Positions 11,135 to 35,399 of a stretch of DNA of 64,000 nucleotides are shown in pieces. Position numbers and translations under genes: made by a program. The notes beneath the pieces are model-generated. The model was not told the DNA's origin. It worked only from the letters and a program-made list of their open reading frames with translations, and searched no databases. This stretch comes from Isurus oxyrinchus (taxonomy: Eukaryota). Position 1 is the first letter of the stretch. Every line of letters begins with the position of its first letter. The stretch covers positions 3,658,001 to 3,722,000 of the forward strand of contig JANJGN010000052.1 of the NCBI GenBank assembly GCA_026770705.1, written 5' to 3'.

Positions 11135-11174
11135 ATGATCGGGAAATCTTACTTCCTCCTGTCACTTCTCCAAG
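11135..11174 (+). CDS. Gene D leader exon MIGKSYFLLSLLQ
   Basis: Acceptor at 11093-11094, ATG 11135, donor GT at 11175, phase 1. Confidence 0.85.
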
Positions 11175-11744: not shown

Positions 11745-12122
11745 TTGGACTGTCACAAGAGTGGAAAGGTGACAGTCCCCGAGAGGTGACAGCGCAGGAA
11801 GGTTCATGTGTACAGATTCCATGTCATTACAGTTACTCATCACATTTGGTAAAGAAAACACATGTCGGAATCTGGTATATGAGGAGGTACATACAGAACA
11901 AATGGTCTAAATGGTCTATAGCCTTTCACTCCAAGGATCACAGTCACGAGTTACCACGGTTCCACCATCGGACACGGCTGTCTGGAGACCTGAAAGATGG
12001 CGACTGTTCCCTGATTATAAACAACATCAGACGGGAAGATGAAGGACCTTATTTTTTCAGAATAGAATTTGACAATGGTCCGAGCCATAACTATTACCCT
12101 GAAACCCAGCTTCAGGTTTCTG
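11745..12122 (+). CDS. Gene D V-set domain 1 (Siglec sialic-acid-binding type), open frame
   Basis: 378 bp, phase 1/1; EGSCVQIPC, GIWY, GDCSL (E-strand Cys) and GPYFFRIE with the essential F-strand Arg. Confidence 0.92.
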
Positions 12123-12384
12123 GTAAGTGCTGTGTTATAATTACTCAACAATTCACATCCAACACTCAATGGGAAATAATAGTGTTTGATTTGCTTGTTT
12201 TTTGGCCATGTTAACCAGCGTCACTATTTTTAATGATTTGTCTATTTCTGCTCCCAGATCCATGATCTTATTGTGTGTGATTGAATCCACATCATAGCTG
12301 TAACATAAACCGAGCTGAGGGGTGATGACACATCCCCCCTGAGTGAAGTGTCTCCTCCCCACTACACCTTCCACCCCTCACACT

Positions 12385-13996
12385 GTCCGTGTAAACCCCC
12401 GTCCCATCTCCAGCCTCTCTTTCCCCTCCAAAGTCCTTGAACGTGTTTCCATCTCCCGAATCCGTCCCCATCTTTCCCGGAACTCCATGTTTGAATCCCT
12501 CCAATCAGGTTCCCACCCCAGCCACTGTGCTGAAACAGTTCTTATCAAGGTCACAAATGGCATCCTGTGTGACTGTGACAAAGGTCAACTTTCCCTCCTC
12601 GTCCTTCTCGATCTGTCTGCAGCCTTTGACACGCTCGACCACACCATCCTCCTCCAACACCTCTCCACTGTCGTCCAGCTGGGTGGGACTGCTCTCCCCT
12701 GGCTCCATTCTTATCCATCTCATCGTAGCCAGAGAATCACTTGCAATGGCTTTGCAGCATCATCTGAACAGTGTTAGTTTTCACCTGTCCACTGAGGATC
12801 CCCAGCTCTACCTCACCACCACCTCTCTCGACTCCTCCACTGCTGCTAAATTATCAGGCTGCTTATCCGACATCCAGTACTGGATGGGCAGAAATTCCCT
12901 CCAATTAAATATTGGAAAGACTGAAGCCATTGTCTTCATTCCCCGCTCCAAACTCTGTTCCCTCGCTACCAACTCCATTCCTCTCCCTGACAGCTCTCTG
13001 AGATTGAAGCCAATCTGTTCACAGCTTTGTTGTCCCATTTGATCCTGAGATGAGCTTCCGGCCTCATATCTGCGCCCTCACTAACACCGTCTATTTCCAC
13101 CTGCGTAACATCGCACGACGTCACCCTGTCTCAGCTCATCTGCTGCTGAAACCCTCATCCACACCTTCATTACCTCCAGACTCGACTGTTCCAACACACG
13201 CTCTACACTCCATAAACTTGAGGCCATTCAAAACTGCTGACCACGTCCTTACTCACACCAGGTCCCGTTCCCTTATCACCCGCTCTGCTCGATGACCGAG
13301 ACTGGCTCCTGGTCAAGCAAAGTCTCAATGTCCAAATTTACATCTTTGTTTCCTCACTATCCCTGTAATCTCCTCATCCTCCTCCAGTACCTACAACCAT
13401 CCCATTCTCTGTAACCTCTTGAAGTATCTACCGCTTCCCTATATCTGCAAATTGATCCTGCCCAACAAACCTACCAATCTCTGCAACCTCCTCCAGCCAC
13501 TACAACCCTCCCTATTTCTGTAACTTCCTCCTGCCCCTAAAAGCTTCCCTATCTCTGTAGCCTGCTCCAGTCCCGACAACTTTCCCTGCCCCTGTAACCT
13601 GCCCCAGTCACTACAACCCTCCCTACCTCTGCAAACTCCTCCAGACCCTACACTCTCCCAATCTCTCTTAACTTTTCCAGCCCCTACAAACCTCCCTATC
13701 TCTGTAACTTCCTCCTGCCCCTAAAAGCTTCCCTATCACTGTAGCCTGCTCCAGTCCCGACGACGTTCCCTACCTCTGTAACCTGCCCCAGTCACTACAA
13801 CCTTCCTTCTCTCTGTAACCTCCTCCAGCCCCTCCAACCCTCTGAGGTCTCTGTGCTCATCCAATTCCAGCCTCTTGACCATCCCCCGATCCCATCACTC
13901 CAACATCGGCGGCCATGCCTTCAGCTGCCTGGGGCCCGAGCTCTGTAATACCCTCCCTCAACCCCTCTCCGTCCCTCTCTCTCACTCTCTCCGTCC

Positions 13997-14030
<34 letters not shown>

Positions 14031-14225
14031 ATCTCTATCTCTCTCTCTCTCACTATCCATTTCATCCCTCTTTGAAGATTCTCCATAACACCGACCTCTT
14101 CTGGTCAGCTGTCGCTAATATCTCCACATGTGTCTGGGTGACATACTTTGTTTTATGACACTCCTGTGTAGCACTTTGGGGTGATTTGTCATGTTAAATT
14201 TGTTGTGTAAATATAACTTGTTGCC
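12385..14225 (+). mobile_element. L2-type LINE RT fragment with 37-bp internal repeats and 3' end
   Basis: 'ETVLIKVTNGILCDCDKGQLSLLVLLDLSAAFDTLDHTILL' and 'LQLNIGKTE' L2 RT motifs; duplicated at 29190-30380. Confidence 0.85.
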
Positions 14226-14769
14226 CTTTGACCCTCGACCCCAGCTCGAGTCTTATTTTAGAGGGAATGTACAACCTCCTTAGATTTCTGACCAAAATGT
14301 CATTTGATTATTTTTATTGAGCGAATGCCAAGCCCCGATACCGAGCGAGAGCCTCCTCATTTGCTGAGTTTAAGGTGTTGAGTCAGCCCCTTAGTCCGTA
14401 GAGGGGATTCTCCTCAGTAATGTGCAGCCTTGTTTGTGTCTCTCCACAAGCGCATGAGGGGTTTGTACAGAGGCTGCAGCGCTGGAGGGGGTCTGCACAG
14501 GGGTCCTGGCCTGTCCTGAGCCGGTTTTAGCAAGGACCACTCTGGCCTTGGCAGCTGAAAGCCAGCCATTGGACAGACGGGGCCTGTCACAAGGAGCCTG
14601 TTAGTCACTCCCCCCCGTGTCTCCTGTGCTCGGATCCAGACCATGTTGGCTGGTGGACCTGGCTCAGGAAGAGTCCTCCCCATGGGACCCCCAGATGGAA
14701 GGTGGGTCGAGCGGGTCAGTCACTTGCATGTTTATTCTGCAGCTTTAATATTTTAAGAAGGTAAGAATG

Positions 14770-15480
14770 TAGGAACATAAGAAATAGGGACAGGAGCAGG
14801 CCATTCGGCCCCTCGAGCCTGCTCTCACTGATCTGGTTGTGGCCTTAACTCCATTTTCCTGCCTGTCCCCCAAACCCTTGACTCCCTTGTTGATCAAAAA
14901 CCTGCCTCACTCAGCCTTGAGTCTATTCAATGGCCCAGCCTCCACTGCTCTCTGGGGAAGAGAATTCCACAGGCTAGCGCCCCTCTGAGAGAGGAAATTC
15001 CTCCTCATCTCAGTCTTAAATGGGAGAGCCCTCATTCCGAAACTGTGCTCCCTGGTTCTAGATTCCCCCACGAGGGGGAAACATCCTCCCAGCATCCACC
15101 CTGTCAAGCCCCCTCGGAATCGGATATGTTTCAATAAGGTCACCCCTCATTCTTCTAAATTCCAATGGATACAGGCCCAACCTGCTCAACATTTCCTCAC
15201 AGGACAAACCCTTTAATCCCAGGAATCAGCCCAGTGAAGCTTCTCTGAACTGCCTGTACACAATGTTCGTGTTACAATCTCACTAACGCCCTGTGCAGCT
15301 GTTGCAAGACTTCCCTCCTTTTATACTCCATCCGTTTGCAATAAAGGCCAACATTCCACTTGCCTTCCTCATTCCGTGGTGTTCCTGAATGCTGACTTTC
15401 TGTGATTCATGTACAAGGACACCCAGATCCCTCTGTACTGCATTCTGCAGCCTGTCTCCATTTAAATAATATTCTGCTTA
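14770..15480 (-). mobile_element. CR1 LINE 3' fragment
   Basis: 'FKTEMRRNFLSQRGASLWNSLPQRAVEA' motif; duplicated at 30520-31240. Confidence 0.85.
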
Positions 15481-15618
15481 TCTATTCTTCCTGCCAAAAT
15501 AATTTGTTGCCATTCTCCTCAGTATTGACCATCCCCCCAATTCAGCCTCATCAGTAAATATCGGGTTCAGTGGATCCATAAAACATCCAGAGTTAAATAT
15601 TGATATTTCTCTCCCCAG

Positions 15619-15984
15619 CTGAACCCTCACAAGAGTGGAAAGGTGACACTCCACGAGAGGTGACAGCGCAGGAAGGTTCGTGTGTACAGATTCCATGTCA
15701 TTACAGTTATCCATCGTGTCTGGAAAACCAACCACGAGGTGGAGTCTGGTTTAATAATGAGGAACGGAGAACATTGTCTATAGCCTTTCACTCCAAGGAT
15801 CACAGTCACGAGTTACCACGGTTCCACCATTGGACCCGGCTGTCTGGAGACCTGAAAGATGGTGACTGTTCCCTGATTATAAACAACATCTGACGGGAAG
15901 ATGCAGGACCTTATTTTTTCAGAATAGAATTTGACAACAGTAATAGTTACAGCTACTATCCTGCAACCCAGCTTCACATTTCTG
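15619..15984 (+). pseudogene. Gene D V-set domain 2 with premature stop
   Basis: 366-bp exon; TGA at 15891-15893 where the three paralogous V exons have AGA; YFFRIE retained after the stop. Confidence 0.9.
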
Positions 15985-16711
15985 GTAAGTGCTGTGTTAT
16001 AATTACTCAACAATTCACATTCAACACTCAAGAGGAAATAACGCAAACTGTGACGTTTACATATTAACACAAAACACAGTTTATTATAACACACTGTCTG
16101 ATTCTCAATAACCTGGTGATAGCTTCCAGTTCAGTCCTAAAGCAACCTCTAATACTTGTTTAATATCAATGATTAAATGTATTGACTGTGTCCATCAATG
16201 TTATCAGGTTATCCACTCGCGTCGATCTCTCTAATCCTGTCTCGAAGTCTGACATATCGACAAAAGAAAGATTCACATTTCTATGGAGCCTTTCACCACC
16301 TCAATATGTACCAAGTCACTTCACAGCCAATGAGCTGATTCCTGAATTGTAGTTACTGTTGTAATGTGAGAAACACAGCAGCCAATTTGCGCACAGCAAT
16401 CTCCCACAAATTGCAAAGTAATAAATGGCCCAGATCGCTGAGGGACTGATGGGGTAGTGCACTCCAAACTCTGGTCTGCTCCTCCACCCTCACCCACTAT
16501 TATCACTTCAAGTGTCTCGGAATGAACGTGTATTAAGCTGAGAGACAGAAACACCAAAGTCTTAAAGCAGGAAATTCTCTCCTGATCGTTGTAACCTCTC
16601 AGTTCTGATATCATCCTTGTAAAAGTGCTTTCTCTTGTGGGACTGTGATTTCTCTTTGAACTAATGCTTCACGTTATATTTCTCTAAAAGGATCCATTCT
16701 CTGTCTGTTAG

Positions 16712-17007
16712 AATTCACAGATAAACCCACGATATTCCCTGTGAAATTATTGCAGGAAAGCGTGTGGATGTAAGCTGCACCTTCAACACAACGTGCAATG
16801 GAACAGCAGCACCTGTCTTAACCTGGGACACTCCCACTGACGTACCTGGATCAGTCTCAAACACTGTAACTCAGCATGGTGTCACTCTGACCTATACTTC
16901 TGTTCTGACCCTGACCCCATCACTCAAACACCACGGACACACTCTCAGCTGCAGAGTGAGATATCCATCTGTTTCATCGGAGCGGACCCTCGTACTAACT
17001 GTACAAG
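16712..17007 (+). pseudogene. Gene D C2-set domain exon with 1-bp frameshift
   Basis: 296 bp versus 297 bp in gene E; CCT GTGAAA versus CCT GCT GAA at ~16741 leads to an early TAA. Confidence 0.88.
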
Positions 17008-17345
17008 GTAAGTACGGACACCCTTCATTCTACATCAGCACTCCCTCAGCGCTGACCCTCTGACAGTGCAGCCCGTTCTCAGTGTCCACATTCTCATGCC
17101 TCTCAAAGTGCTTCACAGTCGATAGAAGTTAACTGATCTTTATTTGATTGTTGCTGAATGAAGAGACAAGCTGTTTAAACTTTAAATCTCACACACATTA
17201 TTTTCCATGGCAACACCTCCACCTATCAGAGACCACTTGCCAACCAATCAGCACTCTCTTCCCTTTAAATATAAATTGTTGTTCACTCTCTGTTGGTAAA
17301 CATGCGATCTGTCTTGTTGAGTCCTGCCCTGATATCTGGATATCA

Positions 17346-17483
17346 CAATGAACAGAACAAGTTCCAACAATGAGCTGTGGTTGGTGATTCCTCACGTTAA
17401 ATCCAGGGACACTGGAGACTATCAGTGTGTGGCAGAGAATGAACATGGAGCAGTGGAGGGGTTCATAACCATCACTGTGGAAT
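17346..17483 (+). pseudogene. Gene D 5'-truncated DAPQN-type Ig exon
   Basis: 3' half (MNRTSSNNELW...ITITVE) and donor intact; acceptor remnant at ~17128-17145 is followed by ~200 bp of unrelated sequence. Confidence 0.85.
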
Positions 17484-19166
17484 GTGAGTGCACACAGATT
17501 TCATCATCTGTCTCAGATTGAAACATGACACAAACACACACAAATATACAGACCTAAATAGACACCTGCAGATACACAATCCCTCGTATATGAGCACACA
17601 CAAAGACACCAACAAACACACTAGCACAATACTCCCCAGTGGGTTACCTGACCTCCCTCAGTGCTGCACCGGAGAGTTGACCTGGATTCTGAGATTTCTG
17701 TTCCCTTTCATGTTTATGGAAGAATATGGAAATTGCAAAGTCTATTACAGACACTCAGATGCATAGAGACACTCACAGATACTCTCTGTCTCTCCAACTC
17801 TCTATCCTCCTTTAAGAAGCTTCCTGAAACCTAACCCTTTGACCAGTCAATTGTCCCAACTCCTCCTTACGTGAATCTGTGTGAAATTTTGTTTGAGTAT
17901 CTGAGAGTAAGAGAGAGGTGGAGAGGTTTAGGAAGGGAATTCCTGTTGGTGAAAAGCTTACATCATATTCTCACTTTTCCACTGCCCGTATTTCACCTGA
18001 TGTCCAATGTCCTTGTTTATAATAGGGATTGCCTATGTAAACGTCACGCTGTAGTTACACTGTACCACCAGTGGTGCACAGTAGAACTTAACCCTTGCAT
18101 CTCTCAGCTTTTCAAGCAAATCCACTTCCCAGTTTGCCTCACAAGCTGTGAGTTCATCGGAATTAAATTATTTCTCAAACGGTAGATTTGATGTCATTTT
18201 ATTGAAAACTTCCTCAGTGCCTCCCTGAAGGGTTTACACTCTCTGGGAAGCAGGAATAGGCTGGATGTTGGGGAGTTCATCTTTTCCCTGAGAGTAGTGA
18301 TCCTCGGGAATGTGCTGTCAGTGGGTGTGGTGGTTGCTGTTTCTCTGTCGCCTTCAAGAGGGATCTGGAGTGGTTACTGACTGGGGGAGAGATCATGGAA
18401 GCGGAGAATGATACAGCACAGGAGGAGGCCATTCAGCCCATTGAGCCTGTGCCAGGTCTTTCAATGTTCTATCCCATCAGATCCACTAACCACCACTCCA
18501 CTTTGCCCCCATCTTCCTCCTTCAAGTGTTTATCCAATTTCCCTTTCGAAAGTTCCTATTGAATCTGCTTCCACCGCCCTTTCAGGCAGCACCTTCCAGA
18601 TCACAACAACTCGCTCTGTCAAAACAAATTCTCCTCATCTCCCCCTCCGGTTCGTCAATCTGTGTCCCTCTGGTTACCGACCCTCCTGCCCCGTAAATAC
18701 ATCGATACTGTTCACCTCAACCACTCCCAGAGGGAGCGAGTTCCACATTCTCCCCTCTCTCTGGGTAAAGATTGGAACTGTTTATTAAGCGGGGGGTGTA
18801 AGTCCATGGGGGAGTCCATCTCGATCCTGCCCGATTCGCACACACGTCCGAGATGGATTTCCATCCTTCACAAAACGTTTCCAGAATTTTCTACAGCACA
18901 ATCCTGTACACAGCGATGGAGAGAAACATTGGACAGGGAGTCCAACAGCACAATGATCCATTCTCACCAATGTTCCACGCTAAGGGGAAAGTTCCGATTG
19001 TCCACTCTTAGAGTGTTTACAATGAAAACATTCATTCCACATTGAATCCCAGTGGATGGGTCAATATTACAGCAAATGTTGCAGTGATATGAAGCTTGAT
19101 TGTTCAGCCAGAGTGAGAGATTGAAAGCGGAGAGTCAGTGATGATTTCTTTCTGTGTGTTCTCTAG

Positions 19167-19306
19167 ACAGTGGAGGAGAGATTCTGCACGTGATCCTGAT
19201 CCTGGGAATACGAGCTGTGATATTCCTTGTGGCTGTGGTTATCACTATCGCTGGAGTCTGTGTCTGGGAGGAACAAACAGTGAAAGGAAGTCGACAGACT
19301 GTTTGA
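19167..19306 (+). CDS. Gene D transmembrane exon with intramembrane Arg and short Tyr-free tail: SGGEILHVILILGIRAVIFLVAVVITIAGVCVWEEQTVK(GSRQTV*)
   Basis: ttctctAG acceptor at 19165-19166, phase 1; long hydrophobic run broken by one R; possible degenerate donor G|GAAGT at 19287; read-through stop at 19304-19306. Confidence 0.75.
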
Positions 19307-19329
19307 AGCATTGTACAGCAACAATCTCA

Positions 19330-19935
19330 TCATGGAACAGAAGAACGGCATTTGGCCCATCGACACCATGCTGTCTCTCTGTAGAGCAATCCAGTCAGTT
19401 CCATTCCCCCACTCTATCCCTGTATCTCTTCAAGTTCATTTCCCCTCAAGTGTCCATCCAATTTCCTTTTGAAATCGTTCATCGTCTCCGCTTCCACCAT
19501 CCTCGTAGGCAGCGAGTTCCAGCTCATTACCACTCGCTGTGTTAAAAGGTTCCTCCTCACATCCCCCCTCTGCCCAAAACCTTCAATCTGTGTCCCCCAG
19601 TCCTTGTACCATCAGCTAATGGCAACAGCTTCTCTTTGTCTACCGTTATCTAAACCCATCATCATCTTGTACACCTCGATCAGATCCCCCCTCAATCTCC
19701 TTTACTCCAAGGAGAACAACCCCAGCTTCTCCAACCTAACCTTGTAGCTAAAATCCCTCATCCCTGGACCCATTCTGCTCAATCTCCTCCCCACCCTCTC
19801 AAGGACCCTCACTTCCTTCCCAAAGTGAGGAGACCAGAACTGGACACAATACTCTAGTTGTCACCTAACCAGAGCTTTATAAATGTTCAACATAACCTCC
19901 CCGTGTTTGTTCTCAATCCCTCGATTTATGAAAAG
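19330..19935 (-). mobile_element. CR1 LINE 3' fragment
   Basis: Antisense CR1 ORF2 end and 3' UTR, similar to 14770-15480 and 18405-18780. Confidence 0.7.
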
Positions 19936-20074
19936 CTTATTCTTTCCATCAGCACAAACAGCAATTTCCAAGCGGACTCCCATCAGCAGACAGAGTGCAG
20001 TGAAACATCGGCATGCCTGCTTCTTAATGTACGGAGAGAAACCTGGAACGAGAGATTCTCCTTCTTCTCCTCAG

Positions 20075-20295
20075 CAAGCTGAAACTTTTCCTTATACCTG
20101 GTGCTCCCCAGTCCTGCTGTGTGGACACATCATAACCACGGCATTATCTGGCTGTGTGCAGCCAACATGGTCGAATAGGAATGAACAGAACTGTGACGTT
20201 GCTAAACTCTGTTCTCTGATTGGAATGTGCTTTCTGAATACTGCACCTTTTTCGTGCTGCGATAGATTGTAGGAGGCATTTGGGTTATGAATAAA
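20075..20295 (+). other. Gene D probable terminal exon (A-S-stop) and 3' UTR with polyA signal
   Basis: ctccttcttctcctcAG acceptor, CA AGC TGA; UTR homologous to gene E UTR 42790-42930; AATAAA at 20290-20295. Confidence 0.55.
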
Positions 20296-20649
20296 ATTAC
20301 ATTGATTAACTCAAGTGATTAAAATGCTCAGCCTGTTCTGTAGATATTTATAGATTAAAATTCTTATTTTGCAGCCAAATTCTTGGCTCAAAGACATTAC
20401 TTCATGTTGTCACATTTTCTCCATCATATGAATTCCATTGCCCATCTTTATAATAGAAATTTCCAATGTAAACATGTCACATTGTGGTTGCACACTCCTG
20501 CCAGTGGTGGTGCCATTCCAAAGCTGTCTTGCTGCACAGACACAGTGAGAATTATTCTCGACGTGTACATGATGTTGTTGTTACACAGACATCAGGCGGA
20601 ATCTTGGGCAGTGCCTAGAATGCACTTAGGACATTGCGGACCACACTCA

Positions 20650-21705
20650 GAACTGACAGTGCAGCGTTTCCTCAGTGCTGACCCTCCGTCAGTGCAGCGC
20701 TCCCTCATTACTGTCCCTCTGACAGTGCTGCACAACCTCATTATTGACCCTTTTCAAGTGCAGCACCCCGTCAGCACTAACCTTCTGACAGTGCAGCATT
20801 CCCTCATGGCTGACAATCTGACAGTGCAGCACTCCCTCAGTACTCACCCACCCACAGTACAGCACTCCCTTAGTACTGATTCTCTGACACTGTATCCCTC
20901 CCTCACTACTGACCTTCCGACAGTTCAGCACTCCCGTGGTACAGACTCTCTGACAGTGCAGCACTCCCTCAGTACTCACCCTCCCACAGTGCAGCACTCC
21001 CTCAGTACTCAACCTCCCACAGTGCAGCACTCCCTCAGTACTCAACCTCCCACAGTGCAGCACTCTATCAGTACTCACCCTCCCACTGTGCTGCGCAAGT
21101 TGTTTCAATCAAGACTGGTGCCCAAAGAGGGAGGTTTCATTGCTACATCATTGAAATCAGTGAAAATTATTTTTAGGCTTACGGGAACAAGACTTAGTTC
21201 CCCAAATCCTTTCTTTTGCAATAACACACAGTACAAGAATCTCTGTTTAAATAAATTCCAGTTAAACTTTGCCATGAAAGGATATCTGCTCTTACTCCGC
21301 TCTACCTCAGTATTAACCATCCCACAGTCCGGCACCCCCTCAATACTGAGCCTCCGACTGTGTGGAACTCACTCAGTACAGACACGCTGACTGTTCAGCA
21401 CTCCCACATTACTGACCATCTGATAGTGCAGCACTCCCTCATTACTGACCCTCTGACAGTGCAGCACTCCCACATTACTGACCCTCTGACAGTGCAGCAC
21501 TCCCTCACTACTGTCCCTCCTACATTGCAGCACTCCCTCATTACTGAACCTCTGACAATGCAGCACTCCCACATTGCTCACCCTCTGATATTGCAGCACC
21601 CCCACATTACTGACCCTCTGCTAGTGCAGCACTCCCTCAGTACTGACCCTCCCACAGTGCAGCACTCCCACAGTACTGTCCCACTGACAGTGCAGCACTC
21701 CCTCC
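20650..21705. repeat. 33-bp satellite (CAGTGCAGCACTCCCTCAGTACTGACCCTCTGA); also at 10-120, 10135-10315, 39000-39390, 42205-42395, 52540-52905, 54890-55000
   Basis: 11-aa periodic ORFs (VQHSLSTDPLT / SVLRECCTVGG). Confidence 0.9.
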
Positions 21706-21929
21706 GTAATGATAACAGGGATCGTTGAAATGAATCATAAGGCCAGAGACCTGTATTGGGAACTCTTATCGCCTGAGTTTCAGCCTCCGAGGTGAGGGGG
21801 AGGAGTCTAATCCCACGGAGCCAATGGAGAAGCTTCATGACTATAGATGCCCATATATGAGCTGACAGATCATCAGATGGTAAACGTTTTGCTGAGAGCA
21901 CAAAACATCCTCGATCTTCTCACTGATTA

Positions 21930-22072
21930 CCCACTTCCTCATTTTGTCTCACAGTGACACATCCACCCTTTCTAATTAAACATACAGAGGGAGCAGCACA
22001 GGAAGAGGTCATTCAGCTCAAGCAGAGCGTGTGGGCAGTTCCTCTCCAGACGAGCAGTCGGACGGGTCCTGG
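21930..22072 (+). promoter_or_regulatory. Gene E promoter and non-coding exon 1
   Basis: CACTTCCTCATTTT at 21932-21945; donor GT at 22073. Confidence 0.65.
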
Positions 22073-22522
22073 GTAAGTAACGGAACGATTGGAATTCACT
22101 TCCATGACCAACACTGTCCTTTGTTGATGTTGTGACTTTATAAAGACAGATTCCAATGATTGATACCTTTGAAAGATTTCTACTGATTATTGAGATCAGG
22201 GTGTGAGGCTCAAGTCTGTTGTACAGAACATCTTTCTAGCTCAAGGGATGAGGGAATTGCAGAGACATGAGCTTTGGGACGTCTTGAGGTGGTGAAAGGT
22301 GCAATAGAAATGCAAATCCTTCAATGTTTTTCTTTCTTAAAGCCTTGTAACTCTCTGCAGAGTACCTATCATCCCACAGAGAATTAAATTAGTCTGTCAA
22401 GACATTGTCCAAAAGCAGTTCTGATCTCTTGAGAGCTGTCGGACAAGAGGTGAGGTCTATTTAACTCCTTTCTCTTTCAGAGTTTGAGAGTCAGAAGCTT
22501 ATGAAGTATCTGGGAGTGGACA

Positions 22523-22562
22523 ATGATCGGGAAATCTTACTTCCTCCTGTCACTTCTCCAAG
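22523..22562 (+). CDS. Gene E leader exon MIGKSYFLLSLLQ
   Basis: ATG 22523, donor GT at 22563, phase 1. Confidence 0.85.
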
Positions 22563-24049
22563 GTAATATCATCGTCAGCTTGGACAGATTTATGGTTAAT
22601 AGTCTTTGTAAAAGATCATTCTTATTGAGCTGTGATTGGGAAACGATTCAGCAGTGAGCCAGTGTACAAACACAGAGCAAGTCCCATTCACCCATCACCC
22701 CTAAGCTCACTGATATACACTGACTCCCTGTCTGACAGCAGAATTGGAGGAGAGCAGAGGTCTTAGAGGGTTTTAGGGTTGGAGGAGGTTACACAGATAG
22801 AGAGTGTAGAGGGGGGATGGTGTGGTAAGAAATCGATGATGAGAATTTGAAATTTGAGTCATTGCTGTACTGGGAGTCAGTGTAGGTCAGTGAGTGACAG
22901 GGGAGCGATCGGCTGAATAGAGAATCAGGGATAAAAACTGGGGGTTGAGGTCTATCCCGATGCTAGGACACGGATAACAATGCCCTGAAATTTTGTGTCT
23001 TTTGCTGATCTAAGTCAGGACTTCCCATGAAGACAACACATCAGCTCCTAGAATAGACAGGCTGTTCAGTGTCACACTTCCTGTCCATTCTCACCTTGCT
23101 AGATACTTCAATAAGGGAGCAAGATAACTGAAAGAGAGAAGGAAGGTAAAGCTGTCTGTGTGTAAAACTGTCAAATATTCTGAGTTATCATAATTGTCTC
23201 TGACCTGCTGCAGAGTTTAAATTTCACAGAATCTGAGCACTTTGCAGCTCAGAGAGAGACCATTGACTCACTGCCTGAAAGGCCGGTGGAAGCAGATTCA
23301 ACAGGAACTTTCAGAAGGGGAACTGGATAAATACTTGAAGGGGACATTTTGCAGGGCTGTGGAGGAGAGAGCAGAGGTGAGAGTGGGACTAATTGGACAG
23401 ATCTTTCAAAGGCCCAGCGCAGGCTCGATGGACCAAATGGCTTCCTTCTGTTCCAGATCATTCTACAATCTGACAAATTAAGCCCCACATCAATAACTCT
23501 TCAGCCTCCCGCTGCAGGGATGGATCTTTGAGAAGGAGAGGGAACAAGAGGTTTCTGGTAACATTTTCATAATTCTTGACAATTACATAAATGTATAGAT
23601 CTGTTGAATATTTAAGTCTCTAAAGCATAGAGGTAATTTGCTGTTACGCCCAGGTCTTGTGGTGGGAACCTTGTCTGGAGGTGTCTTTAATTGCTCACAT
23701 TGATCTGTGGGATTGTCATTCTTCGATGTTGCCCCTTGTTTCAATTGGCATTTTACCCTTGATGCAACTGGGGAGGCTTTAAACTAACATGGCAGGGGAT
23801 GGGATCCCAAGAAGAGGTTGACCAAAGGGAGATGCACAGCCAAAATTAGAAGAGAGAGCAAATGAACGTGGAAGGCAGAGAAATTATTGGCAGAAGATAG
23901 AATGGCAAAGTTGGATTGCAATTATTTTAATGCAAGGAGTCTGACAGACTTGCATTCTCCTGCAGGTGTAATGTTGCAGCTCCCATGAACCTGCCAATAT
24001 TGTTGAATCTGTCTGCATATTTCAATGTTATGTCATGAACTGAGCTGAT

Positions 24050-25740
24050 GGGATAGTTTCTGAGACTGGGACAGACATAAATCCATTGGCTTTCGGCCGG
24101 ACCGGACAATCCTGGCAGTGGGTGGGGCCAGCAAATCCCACCCCTTGGGACATTTTCAGTTTATTTGATGTGCCCAGAGAGATCAATAAAGACCTCAATC
24201 CACAATTTATTGGCAAGCCACGTCAGGATATGTGTGAGAGGTGGAGTATCGATCACCGCTCCTCGTCTCACCGTGCACATCATCGCCATTTCCTGGTTTG
24301 TCAGTCACCACATGTCTATGTTCCTGATGGGATAGCGGATGGTCATTCTTATTGCTTGAAGGTTCCCCGTTGTGCAGGGTTAGTTTGGATCAGCGCACAG
24401 CTCTTTGTAGCGGCATCAGCCTTTGCTCTAGTGCCCTGCCGCTGTCAATGGCCCTTTCTGCCACAAGCCTTGCAGGATTGGTGGAAAGCTGGGCATTTCC
24501 TTGGTGCTTGCAGAAGGCCACACCTTCCACACATCTCACTAGGTCTGGATGTTCTAGTGAGTGTGTCAACAATTGATGTTGTACTGAGGACCTGTAAGCT
24601 TTGTTGACCTGTGAGGATCACTTCGTATTTATGTCCATCCTTGAGTAGCTCTTCAATGCTGTAGGTTTTGGTCTTATCTAGCAGATCTTTCTGGAAGGCT
24701 TCCATGGGAGTGGATGCGATCACCAACTCAACAACTGTGTCTGCAGGCTCTGTGTTTGAAATCACAGTGCGTACCCTTTTCTCTACATCGGCTGATGAAG
24801 TGGTCTATGGATTGTGTAGGCTGATGAAATGACATAAACTCTAGTTGATGAATATGAAGTTTAACCTGATTCTGAACCTGTCTTCCAATGTCGTCCATAT
24901 CTATTGGGGATCCTTTCGCTCTTCTGCTGTTAATCCTGACGTGTTCAGCCTGTGTAGACCTTCATTCCCAATCGCGAGGTGAATTCTTATGGCTTGCTCG
25001 TCTGGTTCAGTCACACCTGAATCAGGAAACCAGAGCTCTGTACGCTGTTTAAACATTCTGAATTCAGATAGTCGGTCAGCTACATCCCAGTTCAAACTGG
25101 GGAATTTCGTGGACATTCTGACAATATTCCTTTGACCTTCCTTCTCCTACAGGATCTGGGATGAGTGTCGCTTTAGCCCCTTTCGTGCGCTTTTCCGAAG
25201 CTCCGCCCACGGAGACGGGTTGTGGCAGGAACACACCACAGAGTAAAGGAGTCTTTGTTTTTTATTCAATTTGCTGTTCAGCAATCTCGAAGCCGCCCGT
25301 TATAATCACTAACTTCTCTGGGCTGATTTTATAATGGTTTTTGGGTGTTTGACTCTCCCTCGCTCACTATCGATCCAGCCCACACTCTGGTCACTCGCCT
25401 TCCCTGACTGAGCTAACCCGCTGCTGGTCCTGGCGATACACACTGTCGCACTCACTGACCTACAGGCCGTGTGCTGTAATCTCACCACGAGGGATCCGTC
25501 TGCTCCCCAGCTCTTTACTTGAGCTCTTTCCCGTCACTGTGTCTTCAAAGGTTTCCTGAGCAGTCAGTACACTGCGATTTCAACCCTCTCTGATGCTGTG
25601 TCTCTGTTCTGGTCTGACCAAAGCGTCGAGGGTCGTCTCATGTCATGTAGCTCGATCTAAGGCTGTTCACCACATCATACCTGTACTGAATCTTGCTGCC
25701 AGAATGTTTGGCCACCGCTGATCACCATGTTGTGTTTTTA
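24050..25740 (-). mobile_element. Degenerate Gypsy-type LTR retrotransposon (gag region)
   Basis: gag-like ORFs 24901-25116 and 24445-24765 with zinc knuckle CGRCG...CPA...CKACGRKGH; LTR-end/PBS-like ACA|TGGTGATCAG on the minus strand at ~25718-25730. Confidence 0.8.
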
Positions 25741-27230
25741 TAATGATATAAAGGCACCAGCCACTGATACGGAATTGGGTAAATGCATTGTGGGTTCATT
25801 TATTTAGAACAGGGACATGAGAACAAGGATAGAAAGCTGGGAGACACCTGCGGCCAAACTGTGTGAGCTGTGTTCTGCTCACAGGCCAAAGTGAAACTTG
25901 GACTGGATGGTGTTATCATCCCAGCTGATGTTACTACTGGGCAAGTCAGATCCCAGGGTGGAGCTCAGCTTGATAGGTCCTAACTTTTATTTTTTATTTA
26001 GGAATGTGGAGTGCGGCTACTGAACAGAGTCACAGGAATCATCTGATGACCTTCTAACAAAAGAATAAAACATTTATTAAATTAGGAAAGACAAACTATA
26101 TTACATTACTCCTTCACCCAGACCTATACATTTACAGATTCATAAGTAGAATACAAGTTACAATAACTATCTTATACTCTCATGTTCACACTAAGTACAC
26201 AGTTCATGCAAACCAATAGACGACCTGGTGTCAGGGACACCACATTCTGTAACCAAGTGATAGACCCCAATTGGAACAAATGCTATGGGTTTCAGCTCAA
26301 CTGACTCCAGACACTTGTTTCACCATGAGGCAACTGGTCTTACAAAACTGTATCTTTCACATGAGAGTTTCCAATCTCTACTCGTCAAGTGCTCTCTTTG
26401 GAATCTTCTCCAACATGACACTTTCACTCAGAGACCTTCCACAAGGGTCCACTTCCATGATTTCAAACTCTCCTTCCCATGTTCGTGTCCCCTGGATCGC
26501 CACATGCATTCAGCCTTCCTTCTACGCGTTGTCTCTCCAATGCTCAGTCATGCCAATGGAACACCATGGCTTCACATGGCCGTAGTAAGAGACATCAACA
26601 TTTGGCTGTCTCCTATGATCTTCTGGCTTCTAATCAGCCTTTTTTGCTTTAGGTCTGTGTCCTTTTGCTTTTTCTCTTTTAGCTTGGATCCCTCCTCTGC
26701 TCCTCAATCTTATCTCGACTTAACAGGACCTTTTTCAGATTCCTGATCTTCTTTGGAGTAGAAGGTCTTCTTGGCTCTTTCTCCTGTTCCACTCGATAGT
26801 TTTGGCTTCTTCTTTACTTTGGGACTGACTATCTGTCCCGCTCCTTTGCTGCTTCTCCTGGCAACTCCTTTCAACCAAACTGAAAGCACATTTCTGTTTT
26901 TCTCTGTCTCTATGAGTCCGTCCCTATGGATCACTGTTGCTTAGCAATAGCACAGTTTCTTACACCTTGTGTTTGTTTTGACTTTCCTTCAAGAGACATC
27001 AAACCCCATTAGATTGCTAAATGAAAATGAAACCAAAACTGAAGTTTCCCCCTTTCTTAACACACAAATACAGAAATCAAACTAAACTTGAACTTAAAGA
27101 TAGACCTTAAACCCTAACACACACAAATACACATAGAACTTACTTAAGCTATCCCCAGTTCTAAAATCACATGACACACTTCCCCTCGAGTGATGTCATG
27201 CTGCTGTCCCTGAAAGGCATATTACAATAG

Positions 27231-28156
27231 TGTTATCACTTGGCAGGTGATGTGTGCCAGGCAGACCAAGTCCATGAGAGAAAGGTGGTCACACTATCAT
27301 AATGATTTTGCAATTTGTATTTATTATGAGATGTGTGCACTGAATTCAGAAGCAATAATTACACCAAGACCTTTAGAGATTTGAAAATTAAATTAAAATT
27401 CTTGCTCTCAAAATAAAAGATTTCAAGCACATACATAACTCTACAATTACCACTATAATAATTCTTAAAATTCCAAATTAACCTGACTCCCAGTTACACT
27501 CCCTTTAAGGCAACAGACTAAAAATAGAGTTTATATTTAAAACAAACTCAGCAAGTTAACACAATATAAAAGCAATACCCTGCACAGAGGAATTCCAAGT
27601 GGCTTTTCCCCAACTTCAGTTCTGTTGGATAGCAGGCTTGTGCACAAATGCTTGAGGTTTCATTAAGACTATATCACACACTCGTGTTAGATCTTACATG
27701 GCATTCTGACACATAGCCTTTCATTCTCCCTGATAGATATATATTTCTCTCTTTGTAACATGAAAATTCTATTTTTCCAAATGTTTTTGAAACTGTCTCT
27801 TCCTCATAACAAATTCTTTCGTGGTGCCCATATTGCCAGGAGTCTTTGAGAAAAATAAACACATTCCTTAGTCTTGCTTATCTGGCTAGTTGTAAACAAG
27901 CTAAGATTCCTTTGAAATCCAACAACCCCTTCATTGAAATAAAAATGCAAATTCTCTTCATACCTTCCATGCTAAGCAGCATCCATGTTTCCTCAATAGC
28001 ATGTCAAGCACCTAGCTCCTTTTGATCATTTTAAACTTCCAATCTTATTAACTCCAAATGTACTTAAATCACATGCAGACCCATCATGCGTACCCCCATA
28101 AACCTACTTCACAATATACTATAAAATATTATGAAAATTATTATACTTACATCACA
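27231..28156. mobile_element. Solo LTR-like element, 926 bp, with 4-bp TSD
   Basis: TGTTAT...ATCACA termini; ATAG at 27227-27230 and 28157-28160; related copy inverted at 43054-44015. Confidence 0.8.
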
Positions 28157-28559
28157 ATAGGAACCACTGCCTTAGACACTGAGGATCTAGGACAGCTAGG
28201 CCAATTCATGATTCATGATGGTGATAATGGGGGAATTCTGAAGGCTCTAAATCCATTGTCCTACATTGTAAATCAGCAGTGAACTCACTTCAATCAGTGC
28301 GTCTTGTAGACACTGTGTTGGGTGGCAGACTGACTTCACTAAATAGGTTCCTGAGGGCCATGAGCCAATGTAGAATGAACTTGTCCACTCCTGTGTCCAG
28401 AATTCTCTTCGATCTGTGGTAAAACCTTGGGGCATTCATTGTGTGACCTGTGGATTATCCAGACTGCAGCCACTGTGCCCCAGTGATGGAGGGGGTGGAT
28501 ATTGAGTATAGTGGATTGAGAAAACATTCAGAGTTAAATATTGATATTTCTCTCCGTAG

Positions 28560-28934
28560 TTGGACTATCACAAGTGTGGAAAGTCAACACTCCACGAGAG
28601 GTGACAGCGCAGGAAGGTTCGTGTGTACAGATTCCATGTAATTACAGTTATCCATCATATTTAGTAGCGAGATCACCAGTCGGAATCTGGTATATGAGAA
28701 GGAATTGGGAAACATGGAATGAACGGTCTATAGCCTTTCACTCCAAGAATCACAATGGCAAGTTAACACGGTTCCACGATCGGACCCGGCTGTCTGGAGA
28801 CCTGAAAGATGGCGACTGTTCCCTGATTATAAACAGCATCAGACGGGAAGATGCAGGACCTTATTATTTCAGAATAGAATTTGACAATGGTCCGAGCCAT
28901 AACTATTACCCTGTAACCCAGCTTCACGTTTCTG
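28560..28934 (+). CDS. Gene E V-set domain 1 (Siglec type)
   Basis: 375 bp, phase 1/1; EGSCVQIPC, GDCSL, GPYYFRIE (essential Arg). Confidence 0.93.
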
Positions 28935-29189
28935 GTAAGTGCTGTGTTATAATTACTCAACAATTCACATCCAACACTCAATGGGAAATAATAGTGTTTA
29001 ATTTGCTTGTTTTTTGGCCGTGTTAACCAGCGTCACTATTTTTAATGATTTGTCTATTTCTGCTCCCAGATCCATGAGCTTATTGTGTGTGATTGAATCC
29101 ACATCATAGCTGTAACGTAAACCGAGCTGAGGGGTGATGACACCTCCCCCCTGAGTGAAGAGTCTCCTCCCCACTACACCTTCCACCCC

Positions 29190-30380
29190 TCACACTGTCC
29201 GTGTAAACCCCCGTCCCATCTCCAGCCTCTCTTTCCCCTCCAAAGTCCTTGAACGTGTTTCCATCTCCCAAATCCTTTCCCATCTTTCCCGGAACTCCAT
29301 GTTTGAATCCCTCCAATCAGGTTCCCACCCCAGCCACTGTGCTGAAACAGCTCTTATCAAGGTCACAAATGGCATCCTGTGTGACTGTGACAAAGGTCAA
29401 CTTTCCCTCCTCGTCCTTCTCGATCTGTCTGCAGCCTTTGACACGCTCGACCACACCATCCTCCTCCAACACCTGTCCACTGTCGTCCAGCTGGGTGGGA
29501 CTGCTCTCCCCTGGCTCCATTCTTATCCATCTCATCGTAGCCAGAGACTCACTTGCAATGGCTTTGCAGCATCATCTGAACAGTGTTAGTTTTCACCTGT
29601 CCACTGAGGATCCCCAGCTCTACCTCACCACCACCTCTCTCGACTCCTCCACTGCTGCTAAATTATCAGGCTGCTTATCCGACATCCAGTACTGGATGGG
29701 CAGAAATTCCCTCCAATTAAATATTGGAAAGACTGAAGCCATTGCCTTCATTCCCCACTCCAAACTCTGTTCCCTCGCTACCAACTCCATTCCTCTCCCT
29801 GGCAGCTCTCTGAGATTGAAGCCAATCTGTTCACAGCTTTGTTGTCCCATTTGATCCTGAGATGAGCTTCCGGCCTCATATCTGCGCCCTCACTAACACC
29901 GTCTATTTCCACCTCCGTAACATCGCACGACTTCAACCTGTCTCAGCTCATCTGCTGCTGAAACCCTCATCCACGCCTTCATTACCTCCAGACTCGACTG
30001 TTCCAACACACACTCTACACTCCATAAACTTGAGGCCATCCAAAACTGCTGACCACGTCCTTACTCAAACCAAGTCCCATTCCCTTATCAGCCGCTCTGC
30101 TCGATGACCGAGACTGGCTCCTGGTCAAGCAAAGTCTCAATGTCACAATTTTTGAATATTTTTCCTCCCCATTACAGTAATCCTCACCTCTTGCTTCAGC
30201 CATGGCAACCCTCCCTATCTCTGTAACATCCTCCAGCCCCTACAACCCTCCCTATCTCTGTAACCTCCTCCAGCCCCTACAATCCTCTGAGATCTCTGCA
30301 CTCCTCTGATTCCGGTCTCTTGAGCTACCCCCGATTCCCATCGTTGTGCCATTGGAAGCCATGCCTTCTGCTGCCTGGGG
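29190..30380 (+). mobile_element. L2-type LINE fragment (paralog of 12385-14225)
   Basis: Near-identical RT ORF fragments. Confidence 0.85.
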
Positions 30381-30519
30381 CCCCGAGCTCTGGAATTTTA
30401 TCTCTACACCTCTCCCCACCTCTCCCTCTCTCTCAATCTCTCTCTCACTCTCTCTCTCTCACTCTCTCCCTCTCTCTCTCTCGCTATCCCTTTTATCCCT
30501 ATTTTAATATTCTTCATAA

Positions 30520-31240
30520 CACAACAACATAAGAACATTAGAAATAGGAACAGGAGCAGGCCATTCGGCCCCTCGAGCCTGCTCTCGCTGATCTGGTTGT
30601 GGCCTTAACTCCATTTTCCTGCCTGTCCCCCAAACCCTTGACTCCCTTGTCAATCAAAAACCTGCCTCACTCAGCCTTGAGTCTATTCAATGGCCCAGCC
30701 TCCACTGCTCTCTGGGGAAGAGAATTCCTCAGGCTAGCGCCCCTCTGAGAAAGGAAATTCCTCCTCATCTCAGTCTTAAATGGGGGAGCCCTCATTCCGA
30801 AACTGTGCTCCCTGGTTCTAGATTCCCCCACGAGGGGGAAACATCCTCCCAGCATCCACCCTGTCAAGCCCCCTCGGAATCGGATATGTTTCAATAAGCT
30901 CACCCCTCATTCTTCTAAACTCCAATGGATACAGGCCCAACCTGCTCAACATTTCCTCACAGGACAAACCCTTTAATCCCAGGAATCAGCCCAGTGAAGC
31001 TTCTCTGAACTGCCTGTACACAATGATCCTGTTACAATCTCACTAACACCCTGTGCAGTTGTTGCAAGACTTCCCTCCTTTTATACTCCATCCCTTTGCA
31101 ATAAAGGCCAACATTCCACTTGCCTTCCTCATTCCATGGTTTTCCTGAATGCTGACTTTCTGTGATTCATGTACAAGGACACCCAGATCCCTCTGTACTG
31201 CATTCTGCAGCCTGTCTCCAGTTAAATAATATTCTGTTTT
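30520..31240 (-). mobile_element. CR1 3' fragment (paralog of 14770-15480)
   Basis: Near-identical sequence at the same intron position. Confidence 0.85.
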
Positions 31241-31378
31241 TCTATTCTTCCTGCCAAAATAATTTGTTGCCACTCTCCTCAGTATTGACCATCCTCCAAA
31301 TTCAGCCTCATCTGTAAATATCGGGTTCAGTGGATCCACAAACCATTCAGAGATAAATATTGAGATTTCTCTCCCCAG

Positions 31379-31747
31379 TTGGACTGTCACAAGAGTGGAA
31401 AGGTGACACTCCACGAGAGTTGACAGCTCAGGAAGGTTCGTGTGTACAGATTCCATGTCATTACAGTTATCCATCGTGTCTGGAAAACCAACCGCGAGGT
31501 GGAGTCTGGTTTAATAATGAGGAACAGATTCCCTGGGCTCCCATAGCCTTTCACTCCAAGGATCACAGTCACGAGTTACCACGGTTCCGCCATCGGACCC
31601 GGCTGTCTGGAGACCTGAAAGATGGCGACTGTTCCCTGATTATAAACAGCATCAGACGGGAAGATGCAGGACCTTATTTTTTCAGAATAGAATTTGACAA
31701 TGGTCCGGGCCATAACTATTACCCTGTAACCCAGCTTCACGTTTCTG
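31379..31747 (+). CDS. Gene E V-set domain 2 (Siglec type), intact
   Basis: 369 bp, phase 1/1; all Siglec V motifs including YFFRIE; extra Cys in PSCLEN. Confidence 0.93.
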
Positions 31748-32560: not shown

Positions 32561-32857
32561 ATTTCACAGATAAACCCACGATATTCCCTGCTGAAATTAT
32601 TGCAGGAAAGCCTGTGGATGTAAGCTGCACCTTCAACACAACGTGCAATGGAACAGCAGCACCTGTCTTAACCTGGGACACTCCCACTGACGTACCTGGA
32701 TCAGTCTCAAACACTGTAACTCAGCATGATGTCACTCTGACCTATACTTCTGTTCTGACCCTGATCCCATCACTCAAACACCACGGACACACTCTCAGCT
32801 GCAGAGTGAGATATCCATCTGTTTCATCGGAGCGGACCCTCGTACTAACTGTGCAAG
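32561..32857 (+). CDS. Gene E Siglec domain-2 C2-set exon DFTDKPTIFPAEIIAGKPVDVSCTFNTTCNGTAAPVLTW...LSCRV...LTVQ
   Basis: 297 bp, phase 1/1; extra Cys six residues after the B-strand Cys, as in Siglec D2 (interdomain disulfide partner). Confidence 0.92.
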
Positions 32858-33049
32858 GTAAATATGAACACCCTTCATTCTATACTAGCTGTAATAGGAT
32901 ACATTGTGCAGAGCAAGATCCCACAAACTTCACTGGGTTGAAGACAAAACTGGTCCTTTTTTAATGAGTGATATTGAGCAGGGAGAGCTCTTCCTTGTAT
33001 TGACCCTTGGGATTGTTAATCCCAACCTGATAGGGCAGAGGGGGCCCAG

Positions 33050-33121
33050 GTTGTGACTATCAGTGTGTGGCAGAGAATGAACATGGAGCAGTGGAGGGGT
33101 TCATAACCATCACAGTGGAAT
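33050..33121 (+). pseudogene. Remnant (last ~22 codons) of the DAPQN-type Ig exon in gene E
   Basis: DYQCVAENEHGAVEGFITITVE with T|GTGAGT donor; 5' part deleted; a cryptic CAG at 33047-33049 would be in frame. Confidence 0.75.
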
Positions 33122-33439
33122 GTGAGTGTGGAGATACATTTGTTTGTTTGTTGTCTCCGTGGTCTCCGTGGAGCCATTGGGATCGTGTTGTTTTTAATCC
33201 AGTTTTCTTCAATCCTCGCTCAGTCCACGTTATCCACACACCCAATTTTTCCTCTCCCTTTCTGTTTTTGCTCTCAGTTTCTCCTTCAATGGTTGTCAGG
33301 ACAAGGCTGTCAGGTCTTCGTTTCCAATCTCCGTACTTGACGACCTTTCTCTCTCTAACTGTCCTGAACAACCCTTTTAATTGCTGAACATCTCCTCTTG
33401 ATCTAAGTCACTCATTGGTCTTTCTGTCCATCCAGCTGA

Positions 33440-34660: not shown

Positions 34661-34992
34661 AGATACACAATCTCCAACTCTTTCTCAACCATTAAGATGC
34701 TCCTTAAAACCATTAAGACACACCGTTAAAACCTCCTGCTTTCAGCGAGCTTTTGCTCACCTCTCCTAATATCTCCTAATGTGACTCGGGGTCAGATTTT
34801 GTCCGAAGGAGGTGAGAAATGATGGAGGGAATTCCAGAGGTTAGGGTCCAGGCAGCTTAAGGCACGGCCGCCAGTGGTGGAGAGATGGGAATGGGAGAAT
34901 GTGCAAGGGGTCAGAATTGGAGGAGCACAGAGATTTCGGAGAGCTGTGGGGTGTGGGGATTATCTGCTGATTGTTCTCTGTCTTTGTTCCAG

Positions 34993-35268
34993 ATCCCCCA
35001 CAGGAGACGATGGTGTCCATCAGCAGATCCTCAGGTGGGATAAGAGAGGGAAGCAATATCACATTAACCTGCTCCAGTGAAAGTGTCCCACCGATATCTC
35101 ATTACACCTGGTTCAGGATCGAGGGGAACACCAGCACCCAGTTAAACACAAGTAGCCGCACTCTCTCCTTCACTCCTGTAACACGGGAGAATGATGCAGG
35201 TTTCTACTGCACAGCGAGGAACCCAGTGGGTAACAGCACCTCCAACATCACCCACCTGAACGTACAAT
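34993..35268 (+). CDS. Gene E Ig exon (D/Y)PPQETMVSI...EGSNITLTCSSESVPPISHYTWF...DAGFYCTARNPVGNSTS...LNVQ
   Basis: 276 bp, AG/GT, phase 1/1; canonical Ig motifs. Confidence 0.92.
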
Positions 35269-35399
35269 GTAAGCATTTTACTCCCCCTGTCTCTGCTTAA
35301 AACTCAAACACTTTCTGTCTGAGGGCAGCTTCCTTGCTGTGGTTTAGCATAACTAGCATCACCACCCTGCTTTTTTCACCCTGCACCTCTCCGAGATAC

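What the first reader, a model, noticed from the sequence alone, without database searches (positions are those of the whole stretch)
11745..31747. Hypervariable ligand-binding loops inside near-identical flanks, plus patchwork gene conversion among four V exons
D-V1 and E-V1 differ strongly in the B-C and C-C' loops (SSHLVKKTHV/YIQNKWSKW versus PSYLVARSPV/NWETWNER), while their framework and the downstream intronic L2 are almost identical. The exon is therefore more diverged than neutral intron. The 3' halves sort by gene rather than by V position: D-V1/D-V2 share INNI; E-V1/E-V2 share INSIRREDAG and HNYYPVTQLHVS. D-V1 shares WKGD and KDHSHELPRF with both V2 exons. This suggests positive selection and ectopic conversion, as known for CD33-related Siglecs.
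Basis: partly seen in the sequence, partly recalled or inferred. Interest (0 to 1): 0.7.

Follow-up and report, generated by a model that had tools for sequence, protein, structure and literature searches.

The report
Shuffled shark Siglec-like receptor repertoire
These four exons belong to a shark immune-receptor family of about 480 gene copies in this assembly whose sugar-binding-type domains are patchworks of swapped segments; old, distinct loop variants are likely kept apart by selection while the rest is homogenised, but faster-than-neutral change in the two flagged loops is not shown.

Summary
All motifs are where stated. The four exons come from two Siglec-like genes: D (activating-type membrane anchor, broken by a V2 stop and a C2 frameshift) and E (open, inhibitory tail). 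They sit in an array with 480 C2 and at least 657 V exons. Mosaic exons are real: PHI-type p<0.001, segment trees reject each other, and E-V1 carries a V2-type 3' tract. B-C plus C-C' dN/dS is 1.27 (p=0.29). Site-model support falls to p=0.056 once site rates vary, and 3 of 29 conversion-only simulations matched it. The best selection signal is the F strand, where 47 of 99 V1 exons lost the binding arginine (family-wise p about 0.05). V1 and V2 differ almost only in a ~96-nt loop island. The scan noted this array before in other windows; five literature searches found no description.

The parts
11135..11174 (+). Gene D leader exon (MIGKSYFLLSLLQ)
   Evidence: leader-to-V joint in RNA contigs of the family
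11745..12122 (+). D-V1, open V-set exon, V1 type, keeps the F-strand Arg; about 9 near-identical copies elsewhere
11831..11917 (+). B-C loop, C strand and C-C' loop of D-V1: most of the divergence island (alignment columns 33-64) that separates V1 from V2
11974..11980 (.). Step in D-V1/E-V1 divergence from about 17% (left, includes upstream intron) to about 2% (right)
15619..15984 (+). D-V2, V2 type with B-C loop Cys; premature TGA at 15891-15893
16712..17007 (+). Gene D C2 exon, 296 nt (297 in E), frameshifted near 16741
   Evidence: nearly all laid RNA contig depth carries the extra base
19167..19306 (+). Gene D membrane-anchor exon with Arg in the helix and a short tail (activating type, inferred)
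   Evidence: C2-to-anchor joint in 4 of 4 runs
22523..22562 (+). Gene E leader exon
28560..28934 (+). E-V1, open V1-type exon; 5' half from the NWETWNE lineage
28813..28909 (+). V2-type tract inside E-V1 (E-F to G region), including the rare AGC (Ser) at 28836 shared with the E-V2 lineage; patchy (28866 and 28897 differ from E-V2)
31379..31747 (+). E-V2, open V2-type exon with B-C loop Cys
32561..36592 (+). Gene E C2-type exons 32561-32857, 34993-35268, 36299-36592
   Evidence: V-to-C2 joint 31746/32560 in RNA contigs
37513..42764 (+). Gene E anchor exon 37513-37609 and two tandem tail cassettes; the distal one carries LLYANI (ITIM) and TEYAQI (ITSM-like); whole chain open, about 693 aa

Best explanation
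The four exons are mosaic V-set domains of a very large family of shark Siglec-like receptors with activating-type and inhibitory-type tails, in which exchange between copies likely homogenises most of each exon while selection likely preserves old, distinct loop and F-G variants and so reshuffles the binding surface. Shown: family size, three tail types, mosaic exons, a V2-type tract in E-V1, a ~96-nt island (B-C to C-C') that alone separates V1 from V2, purifying selection on the core (dN/dS 0.31). Inferred: that the exchange is gene conversion rather than double crossover; that the island persists because V2 needs its B-C Cys and V1 needs variable loops; that diversifying selection acts on V1, best on the F/G strands at the sialic-acid site; that the driver is pathogen mimicry of self sugars, as argued for primate paired Siglecs. 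Gene D is likely a non-functional or V1-only copy that can still act as a donor.
For: Family: 657 exact matches of a 26-nt V framework word, held by 226 of 281 fetched exons and 26 of 29 in an unselected 400-kb block; 480 C2, 220 Arg-anchor and 215 inhibitory-E anchor matches. Recombination: PHI-type test p=0.0005 for 55 V1 and for 64 V2; each of three segment alignments rejects the other two trees (AU p<=0.0012); E-V1 is identical to its nearest V1 relatives up to about exon nt 170, then 15-21 differences in one 60-nt window where exact matches are V2 exons; 5' and 3' modules occur in several combinations. Island: net V1-V2 divergence 0.28-0.36 in columns 33-64 and 0.001-0.04 elsewhere; synonymous V1-V2 difference 0.355 inside, 0.05-0.09 outside, the 'peak of divergence' pattern described in PMC3924837 (passages). 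B-C Cys in 79 of 81 later-position V2 exons and 0 of 119 V1 exons, and in later V domains of other sharks. Old loops: the same loop lineages in Carcharodon and Cetorhinus proteins. Selection: M2a/M1a LRT 30.9, M8/M8a 29.5 with three segment trees; F strand dN/dS 7.9, F+FG+G 1.9, core 0.31; Arg codon replaced in 47 of 99 V1 vs 1 of 93 V2, by T, M, S or G.
Against: B-C+C-C' dN/dS 1.27, p=0.29; with site-rate variation the site test drops to LRT 5.8, p=0.056. 3 of 29 simulations without positive selection reached LRT 30.9 (0 of 12 at light conversion, 2 of 11 at heavy conversion, 1 of 6 with rate variation). F-strand result matched by 2 of 39 null runs after taking the best of 11 regions; F+FG+G by 1 of 39. 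Pairwise piN/piS over three V1 loops 0.92-1.13, intervals span 1. Cross-species protein distances did not show frameworks grouping by species in most sharks. Upstream intron windows reach the same diversity as the loops. Copy counts may include both haplotypes or assembly duplicates. No ligand binding tested.
Confidence: 0.62

Rival explanations
1. Relaxed constraint plus conversion, no positive selection: surface loops tolerate any residue (dN/dS about 1), short low-similarity stretches simply escape conversion, and the patchwork is a by-product of a young unstable tandem array with many dead copies.
For: Loop dN/dS 1.05-1.59, not above 1 statistically; M1a puts 64-84% of sites at neutrality; conversion-only simulations can reach the observed LRT; 31 of 281 V exons carry a stop or frameshift; gene D broken in 5 copies.
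Against: Core dN/dS 0.31, p<1e-7; 250 of 281 V exons open, 15 of 16 C2 exons open in the unselected block; loop lineages kept across genera; Arg loss confined to V1; F strand has many replacement codons and almost no silent variants.
Confidence: 0.22
2. One reading: D-V1 and E-V1 are recent duplicates whose two loops were driven apart by positive selection, and conversion ran within each gene between V1 and V2.
For: Loops exceed both introns in divergence; the rare INSI site links E-V1 with the E-V2 lineage; some loop sites (H39, W62) have high site posteriors.
Against: Upstream intron is 16% diverged and synonymous loop sites are as diverged as replacement sites; both loop types have their own multi-gene lineages and relatives in other genera; D-V1/D-V2 sharing is the majority state.
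Confidence: 0.1
3. Assembly artefact: chimeric long-read consensus and uncollapsed haplotypes create the mosaics and inflate the copy number.
For: Array split over at least 16 contigs; several identical exons at different places.
Against: One 4.17-Mb contig alone holds 64 Arg-anchor and 66 inhibitory-E anchor matches; module combinations recur in several distinct copies and in other species' proteins; spliced family transcripts in three studies.
Confidence: 0.06

Closest known systems
Primate paired CD33-related Siglecs, Siglec-11/16 and Siglec-5/14 (PMC5701461 and PMC6288428, passages read; PMC4042635, search listing only)
   Same: V-set plus C2 ectodomain, inhibitory ITIM/ITSM-like tail versus charged-anchor activating form, gene conversion of ectodomain exons, null copies, loss of the essential Arg in some lineages.
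   Different: Two-gene pairs homogenise the V domain to keep ligands matched; here about 480 gene units exchange sub-exon segments, also between tandem V1 and V2, and keep a divergent loop island. Orthology not tested; PMC5701461 itself reports relaxed constraint, not positive selection, in the converted exons.
Siglec-12/XII (PMC6288428, passages; its two V domains are recalled and also named in scan note e1-9575185)
   Same: Tandem V domains; Arg loss in the outer domain.
   Different: Single gene; here 1 to 7 V exons per gene and a B-C loop Cys marking the inner V.
Divergence peaks under conversion (opsin exon 5; MHC, R-gene and pseudogene-donor models; PMC3924837, passages read)
   Same: Short island of high silent and replacement divergence inside homogenised flanks; broken copies kept as possible donors.
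   Different: Here the island lies between two exon classes of one gene family with hundreds of members, not between two genes.
RefSeq-predicted 'sialic acid-binding Ig-like lectin 10/12/13' proteins of sharks and rays
   Same: 82 hits, all elasmobranch, 53-77% identical to E-V1; multi-V models and the same three tails.
   Different: Automatic names only; no study of their evolution was found.

Membership tests
Siglec (I-type lectin) | N-terminal V-set domain most similar to Siglec V domains | tested here: met
   Pfam V-set and Ig_CD22 above cut-off; best PDB sequences Siglec-5, -7, -8, MAG, CD33; model pLDDT 70.5, best folds MAG, sialoadhesin, CD33
Siglec (I-type lectin) | Essential F-strand Arg | tested here: met
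   Present in all four window exons and aligned to Siglec-5/7; absent from 47 of 99 V1 paralogs
Siglec (I-type lectin) | B-E intra-sheet Cys pair plus extra V and C2 cysteines for an inter-domain bond (feature recalled) | tested here: met
   CVQIPC, DCSL and CTFNTTC present; bonds themselves not shown
Siglec (I-type lectin) | Binds sialic acid | not testable with these tools
   needs glycan array
CD33-related Siglec subfamily | Proximal ITIM plus distal ITSM-like motif, or charged membrane anchor | tested here: met
   LLYANI and TEYAQI in gene E; Arg anchor in gene D
CD33-related Siglec subfamily | Orthology or synteny with the mammalian cluster | not tested
   no tree with mammalian Siglecs, no synteny analysis
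Gene family under ectopic exchange | Discordant trees along the exon and bounded tracts | tested here: met
Gene family under ectopic exchange | Paralogs group by species across related genomes (concerted evolution) | tested here: inconclusive
   protein-level only; in 8 of 9 species V2 framework was as close or closer to this genome's V2 than to the species' own first V
Positively selected ligand-binding loops | dN/dS significantly above 1 in B-C and C-C' loops | tested here: not met
   1.27, p=0.29; pN 0.354 vs pS 0.333 for the pair
Positively selected ligand-binding loops | A site class above 1 that survives controls for recombination and rate variation | tested here: inconclusive
   LRT 30.9, 5.8 with rate variation, 3 of 29 nulls as high; F strand 2 of 39 nulls

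The most novel reading that the evidence does not exclude
Lamniform sharks carry a germline, antibody-like repertoire of several hundred Siglec-type receptors: the outer V domain is assembled by conversion from interchangeable loop and F-G modules, the inner Cys-linked V keeps sugar binding, and inhibitory members preferentially discard the outer sialic-acid Arg (21 of 34 vs 7 of 36 activating-linked V1) to escape sialylated pathogens while activating members keep it as a trap.
Probability: 0.3. Interest if true: 0.8.

Novelty: new variant of a known kind. Interest (0 to 1): 0.52.

Why it matters
Humans have about 15 Siglecs (abstract listing of PMC8615218) and conversion there is known for two pairs. 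A vertebrate with hundreds of activating and inhibitory copies that shuffle sub-domain modules would be the largest natural test of the paired-receptor arms-race model and a third, non-rearranging source of receptor diversity in sharks. The window finding alone (four exons) is an ordinary sample of that array and overstates the case for loop selection.

Tried and rejected
D/E-specific conversion of the downstream L2 intron: rejected, 40 of 55 V1 share it. Positive selection in V2: LRT 17.2 lies inside the null range; no V2 region significantly above 1. My prior guess that activating receptors lose the Arg: opposite trend. Mutually exclusive V exons: not favoured, a V-to-V2 loose end is seen in one run and RefSeq models join V domains, but leader-to-V2-type joints also exist and could be skipping or V2-first paralogs. 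RNA contigs cannot be assigned to D or E themselves, and the runs are only guessed to be RNA. Far-flank diversity mixes non-homologous introns and was not used. Cross-species concerted evolution at protein level: not shown. Sixteen open exons were dropped by my strict filter before the codon work, and six gappy C-C' columns were dropped from all models. Literature searches siglec+shark+expansion+cartilaginous, siglec+chondrichthyes (30), siglec+elasmobranch+paired receptors (56), siglec+sharks+gene cluster+CD33 (65, 0 papers), siglec+shark names (69) gave no description of this family; the library lacks most subscription journals, and a review on CD33-related Siglec evolution (PMC3015071) was not held. 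No supplements were read.
Full report
What the window holds. They belong to two head-to-tail genes. Gene D is leader 11135-11174, V1 11745-12122, V2 15619-15984, C2 16712-17007, a half Ig exon, and an anchor exon 19167-19306 with an Arg in the membrane helix and a short tail. Gene E is leader 22523-22562, V1 28560-28934, V2 31379-31747, three C2-type exons, an anchor and tail exons with LLYANI and TEYAQI; it reads open for about 693 residues. The V exons score as Pfam V-set and Ig_CD22, match Siglec-5, -7, -8, MAG and CD33 best among solved structures, and a model of E-V1 (pLDDT 70.5) matches MAG, sialoadhesin and CD33 folds. All 82 longer relatives found are shark or ray proteins, the closest from Carcharodon and Cetorhinus, so the source is likely a lamniform shark. 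Gene D is broken: V2 has TGA at 15891 and C2 is one base short; five copies share both lesions while others with the same V1 are open.

The family. The window is G000:C52:3658001-3722000. Protein searches gave 1052-1074 first-look candidates, 150 scored each. A 26-nt V word has 657 exact matches; it is held by 226 of 281 fetched exons and 26 of 29 in an unselected 400-kb block, which scales to roughly 730-820 V exons (inference). Exact words for C2, the Arg anchor and one inhibitory anchor match 480, 220 and 215 times; a third, inhibitory-type anchor was not counted. These counts may include both haplotypes, but contig C52 alone lists 64 and 66 of the two anchors. I fetched 400 kb contiguous plus 100 targeted 10-kb stretches and 90 search loci, giving 281 V exons at distinct places; 250 are open, 234 passed a strict filter, 192 are unique (99 V1 type, 93 V2 type), thinned to 55 and 64 for models. 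The sample is biased towards relatives of the three query exons. Contigs of runs guessed to be RNA, from three studies per call, show leader-to-V, V-to-C2 and C2-to-Arg-anchor joints and one V-to-V2 loose end; they show that the family is spliced, not that D or E is.

Checking the observation. D-V1 and E-V1 differ at 22 of 66 loop nucleotides, 17 of 161 other 5' exon nucleotides, 5 of 148 in the 3' exon, 27 of 1216 in the downstream intron and 39 of 241 in the upstream intron. The picture is a step at about 11974, far beyond permutation, with loop peaks on the diverged side. The downstream intron is therefore a poor neutral yardstick: 40 of 55 V1 exons share it within 5%, while only 5 of 55 share the upstream intron that closely. 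Inside the exon, one site sorts by gene, 15 by V position and one crosswise. INNI, WKGD, KDHSHELPRF and HNYYPVTQLHVS are common family states; only INSI is rare.

Exchange between copies. A PHI-type test of my own rejects clonal descent for V1 and V2 (p=0.0005 each), and three segment trees reject each other. E-V1 is identical to its nearest V1 relatives through the upstream intron and the first 170 exon nucleotides, then switches between 28813 and 28909 to a V2-type sequence that includes the rare Ser codon of the E-V2 lineage, and returns to a V1-type intron. The tract is patchy, so more than one event or donor is likely. Across the family, 5' and 3' modules occur in several combinations and on different tails. 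V1 and V2 classes differ almost only in columns 33-64 (net divergence 0.28-0.36 against 0.001-0.04), and silent differences follow the same shape (0.355 against 0.05-0.09). PMC3924837 (passages) describes such a peak as the mark of selection resisting conversion. The island carries a Cys in 79 of 81 later-position V2 exons and none of 119 V1 exons; I looked at this after reading scan note e1-9575185, which proposes a V1-V2 disulfide (untested). Against: protein distances across species did not show frameworks grouping by species.

Selection. For the pair, loop pN is 0.354 and pS 0.333. The same loop lineages occur in Carcharodon and Cetorhinus proteins, so they predate D and E. With my own codon models on segment trees, M2a beats M1a by 30.9 and M8 beats M8a by 29.5 (omega 2.6-2.8 at 19% of sites); six segments give 23.8. 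Simulations without positive selection but with conversion reached 30.9 in 3 of 29 runs, none of the 12 at the lighter rate that best fits the observed incompatibility profile. Allowing site rates to vary cut the real test to 5.8, p=0.056. By region, B-C is 1.05, C-C' 1.59, together 1.27 (p=0.29); the core is 0.31; the F strand is 7.9 (p=0.004) and F to G 1.9 (p=0.015). The F-strand value was matched by 2 of 39 null runs taking the best of 11 regions. The binding Arg is replaced in 47 of 99 V1 and 1 of 93 V2 exons, and in 21 of 34 inhibitory-linked against 7 of 36 activating-linked V1 proteins; these come from about four lineages, so the Fisher p of 0.0005 overstates it. Diversifying selection on V1 is thus likely but not established, and its best trace is at the sugar site, not in the two loops flagged.

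Comparison and novelty. The system works like primate paired Siglecs, where conversion, null alleles and Arg loss are documented (PMC5701461, PMC6288428, PMC13358205; passages). Membership of the CD33-related subfamily by descent was not tested. What differs is scale, tandem V domains and sub-exon shuffling around a protected island. Five searches found no account of this shark family; the whale shark genome paper mentions Siglecs once (passage). The scan has met this array in many other windows of the same genome; no note held all my selection-related words. Verdict: observation partly confirmed, conversion supported, loop selection unproven; new variant of a known kind; interest 0.52.

Noticed in passing
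G000 contigs C52, C71, C121, C150, C189, C323, C385, C546, C557, C646, C724, C838, C926, C1130, C1184, C1343 (about 14 Mb summed): The whole array: 480 C2, 220 Arg-anchor and 215 inhibitory-E anchor matches, i.e. activating and inhibitory types in similar numbers; a few outlying copies on C25 and C34.
   Followed up: partly
G000:C52:1875167-1886920; L215, L221: Runs of up to six near-identical V2 exons at 2.3-kb spacing behind one V1, suggesting receptor length varies by unequal crossover.
   Followed up: no
V1 exons family-wide, F strand: Essential Arg replaced by Thr, Met, Ser or Gly in 47 of 99 V1 exons, more often on inhibitory tails; few independent origins.
   Followed up: partly
window 38333-42764: Gene E has two tandem tail cassettes; the proximal one has weakened motifs (FLYANP, TELAQI), the distal one full ITIM/ITSM-like motifs, so alternative last exons could tune inhibition. 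Same layout recurs in paralogs.
   Followed up: no
window 223-5416: 3' part of a neighbouring gene with a third tail type (DLYANC, SVYGNL).
   Followed up: partly
window 8896-8935 area: Orphan leader exon and 5' non-coding exon with no V exon before gene D's own leader; the same doubling occurs in D-like paralogs.
   Followed up: no
window 57485-58650: A distant V exon of another Siglec/MAG-like type (about 31% to E-V2) with its own leader, cut off in the F strand and followed by retroelement-like sequence; two more copies in C52:1-400000.
   Followed up: no
window 17331-17486 and 33055-33124: 5'-deleted remnants of an Ig exon sit behind the C2 exon in most activating-type and some inhibitory genes; RNA joints skip them.
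   Followed up: partly
C189_28655, C52_3994111, C724_24069 and relatives: A V lineage with IRC/MRC instead of IPC and a distinct B-C loop (PAYFENKRQV), also seen in a Carcharodon protein; left out of the models by my filter.
   Followed up: no
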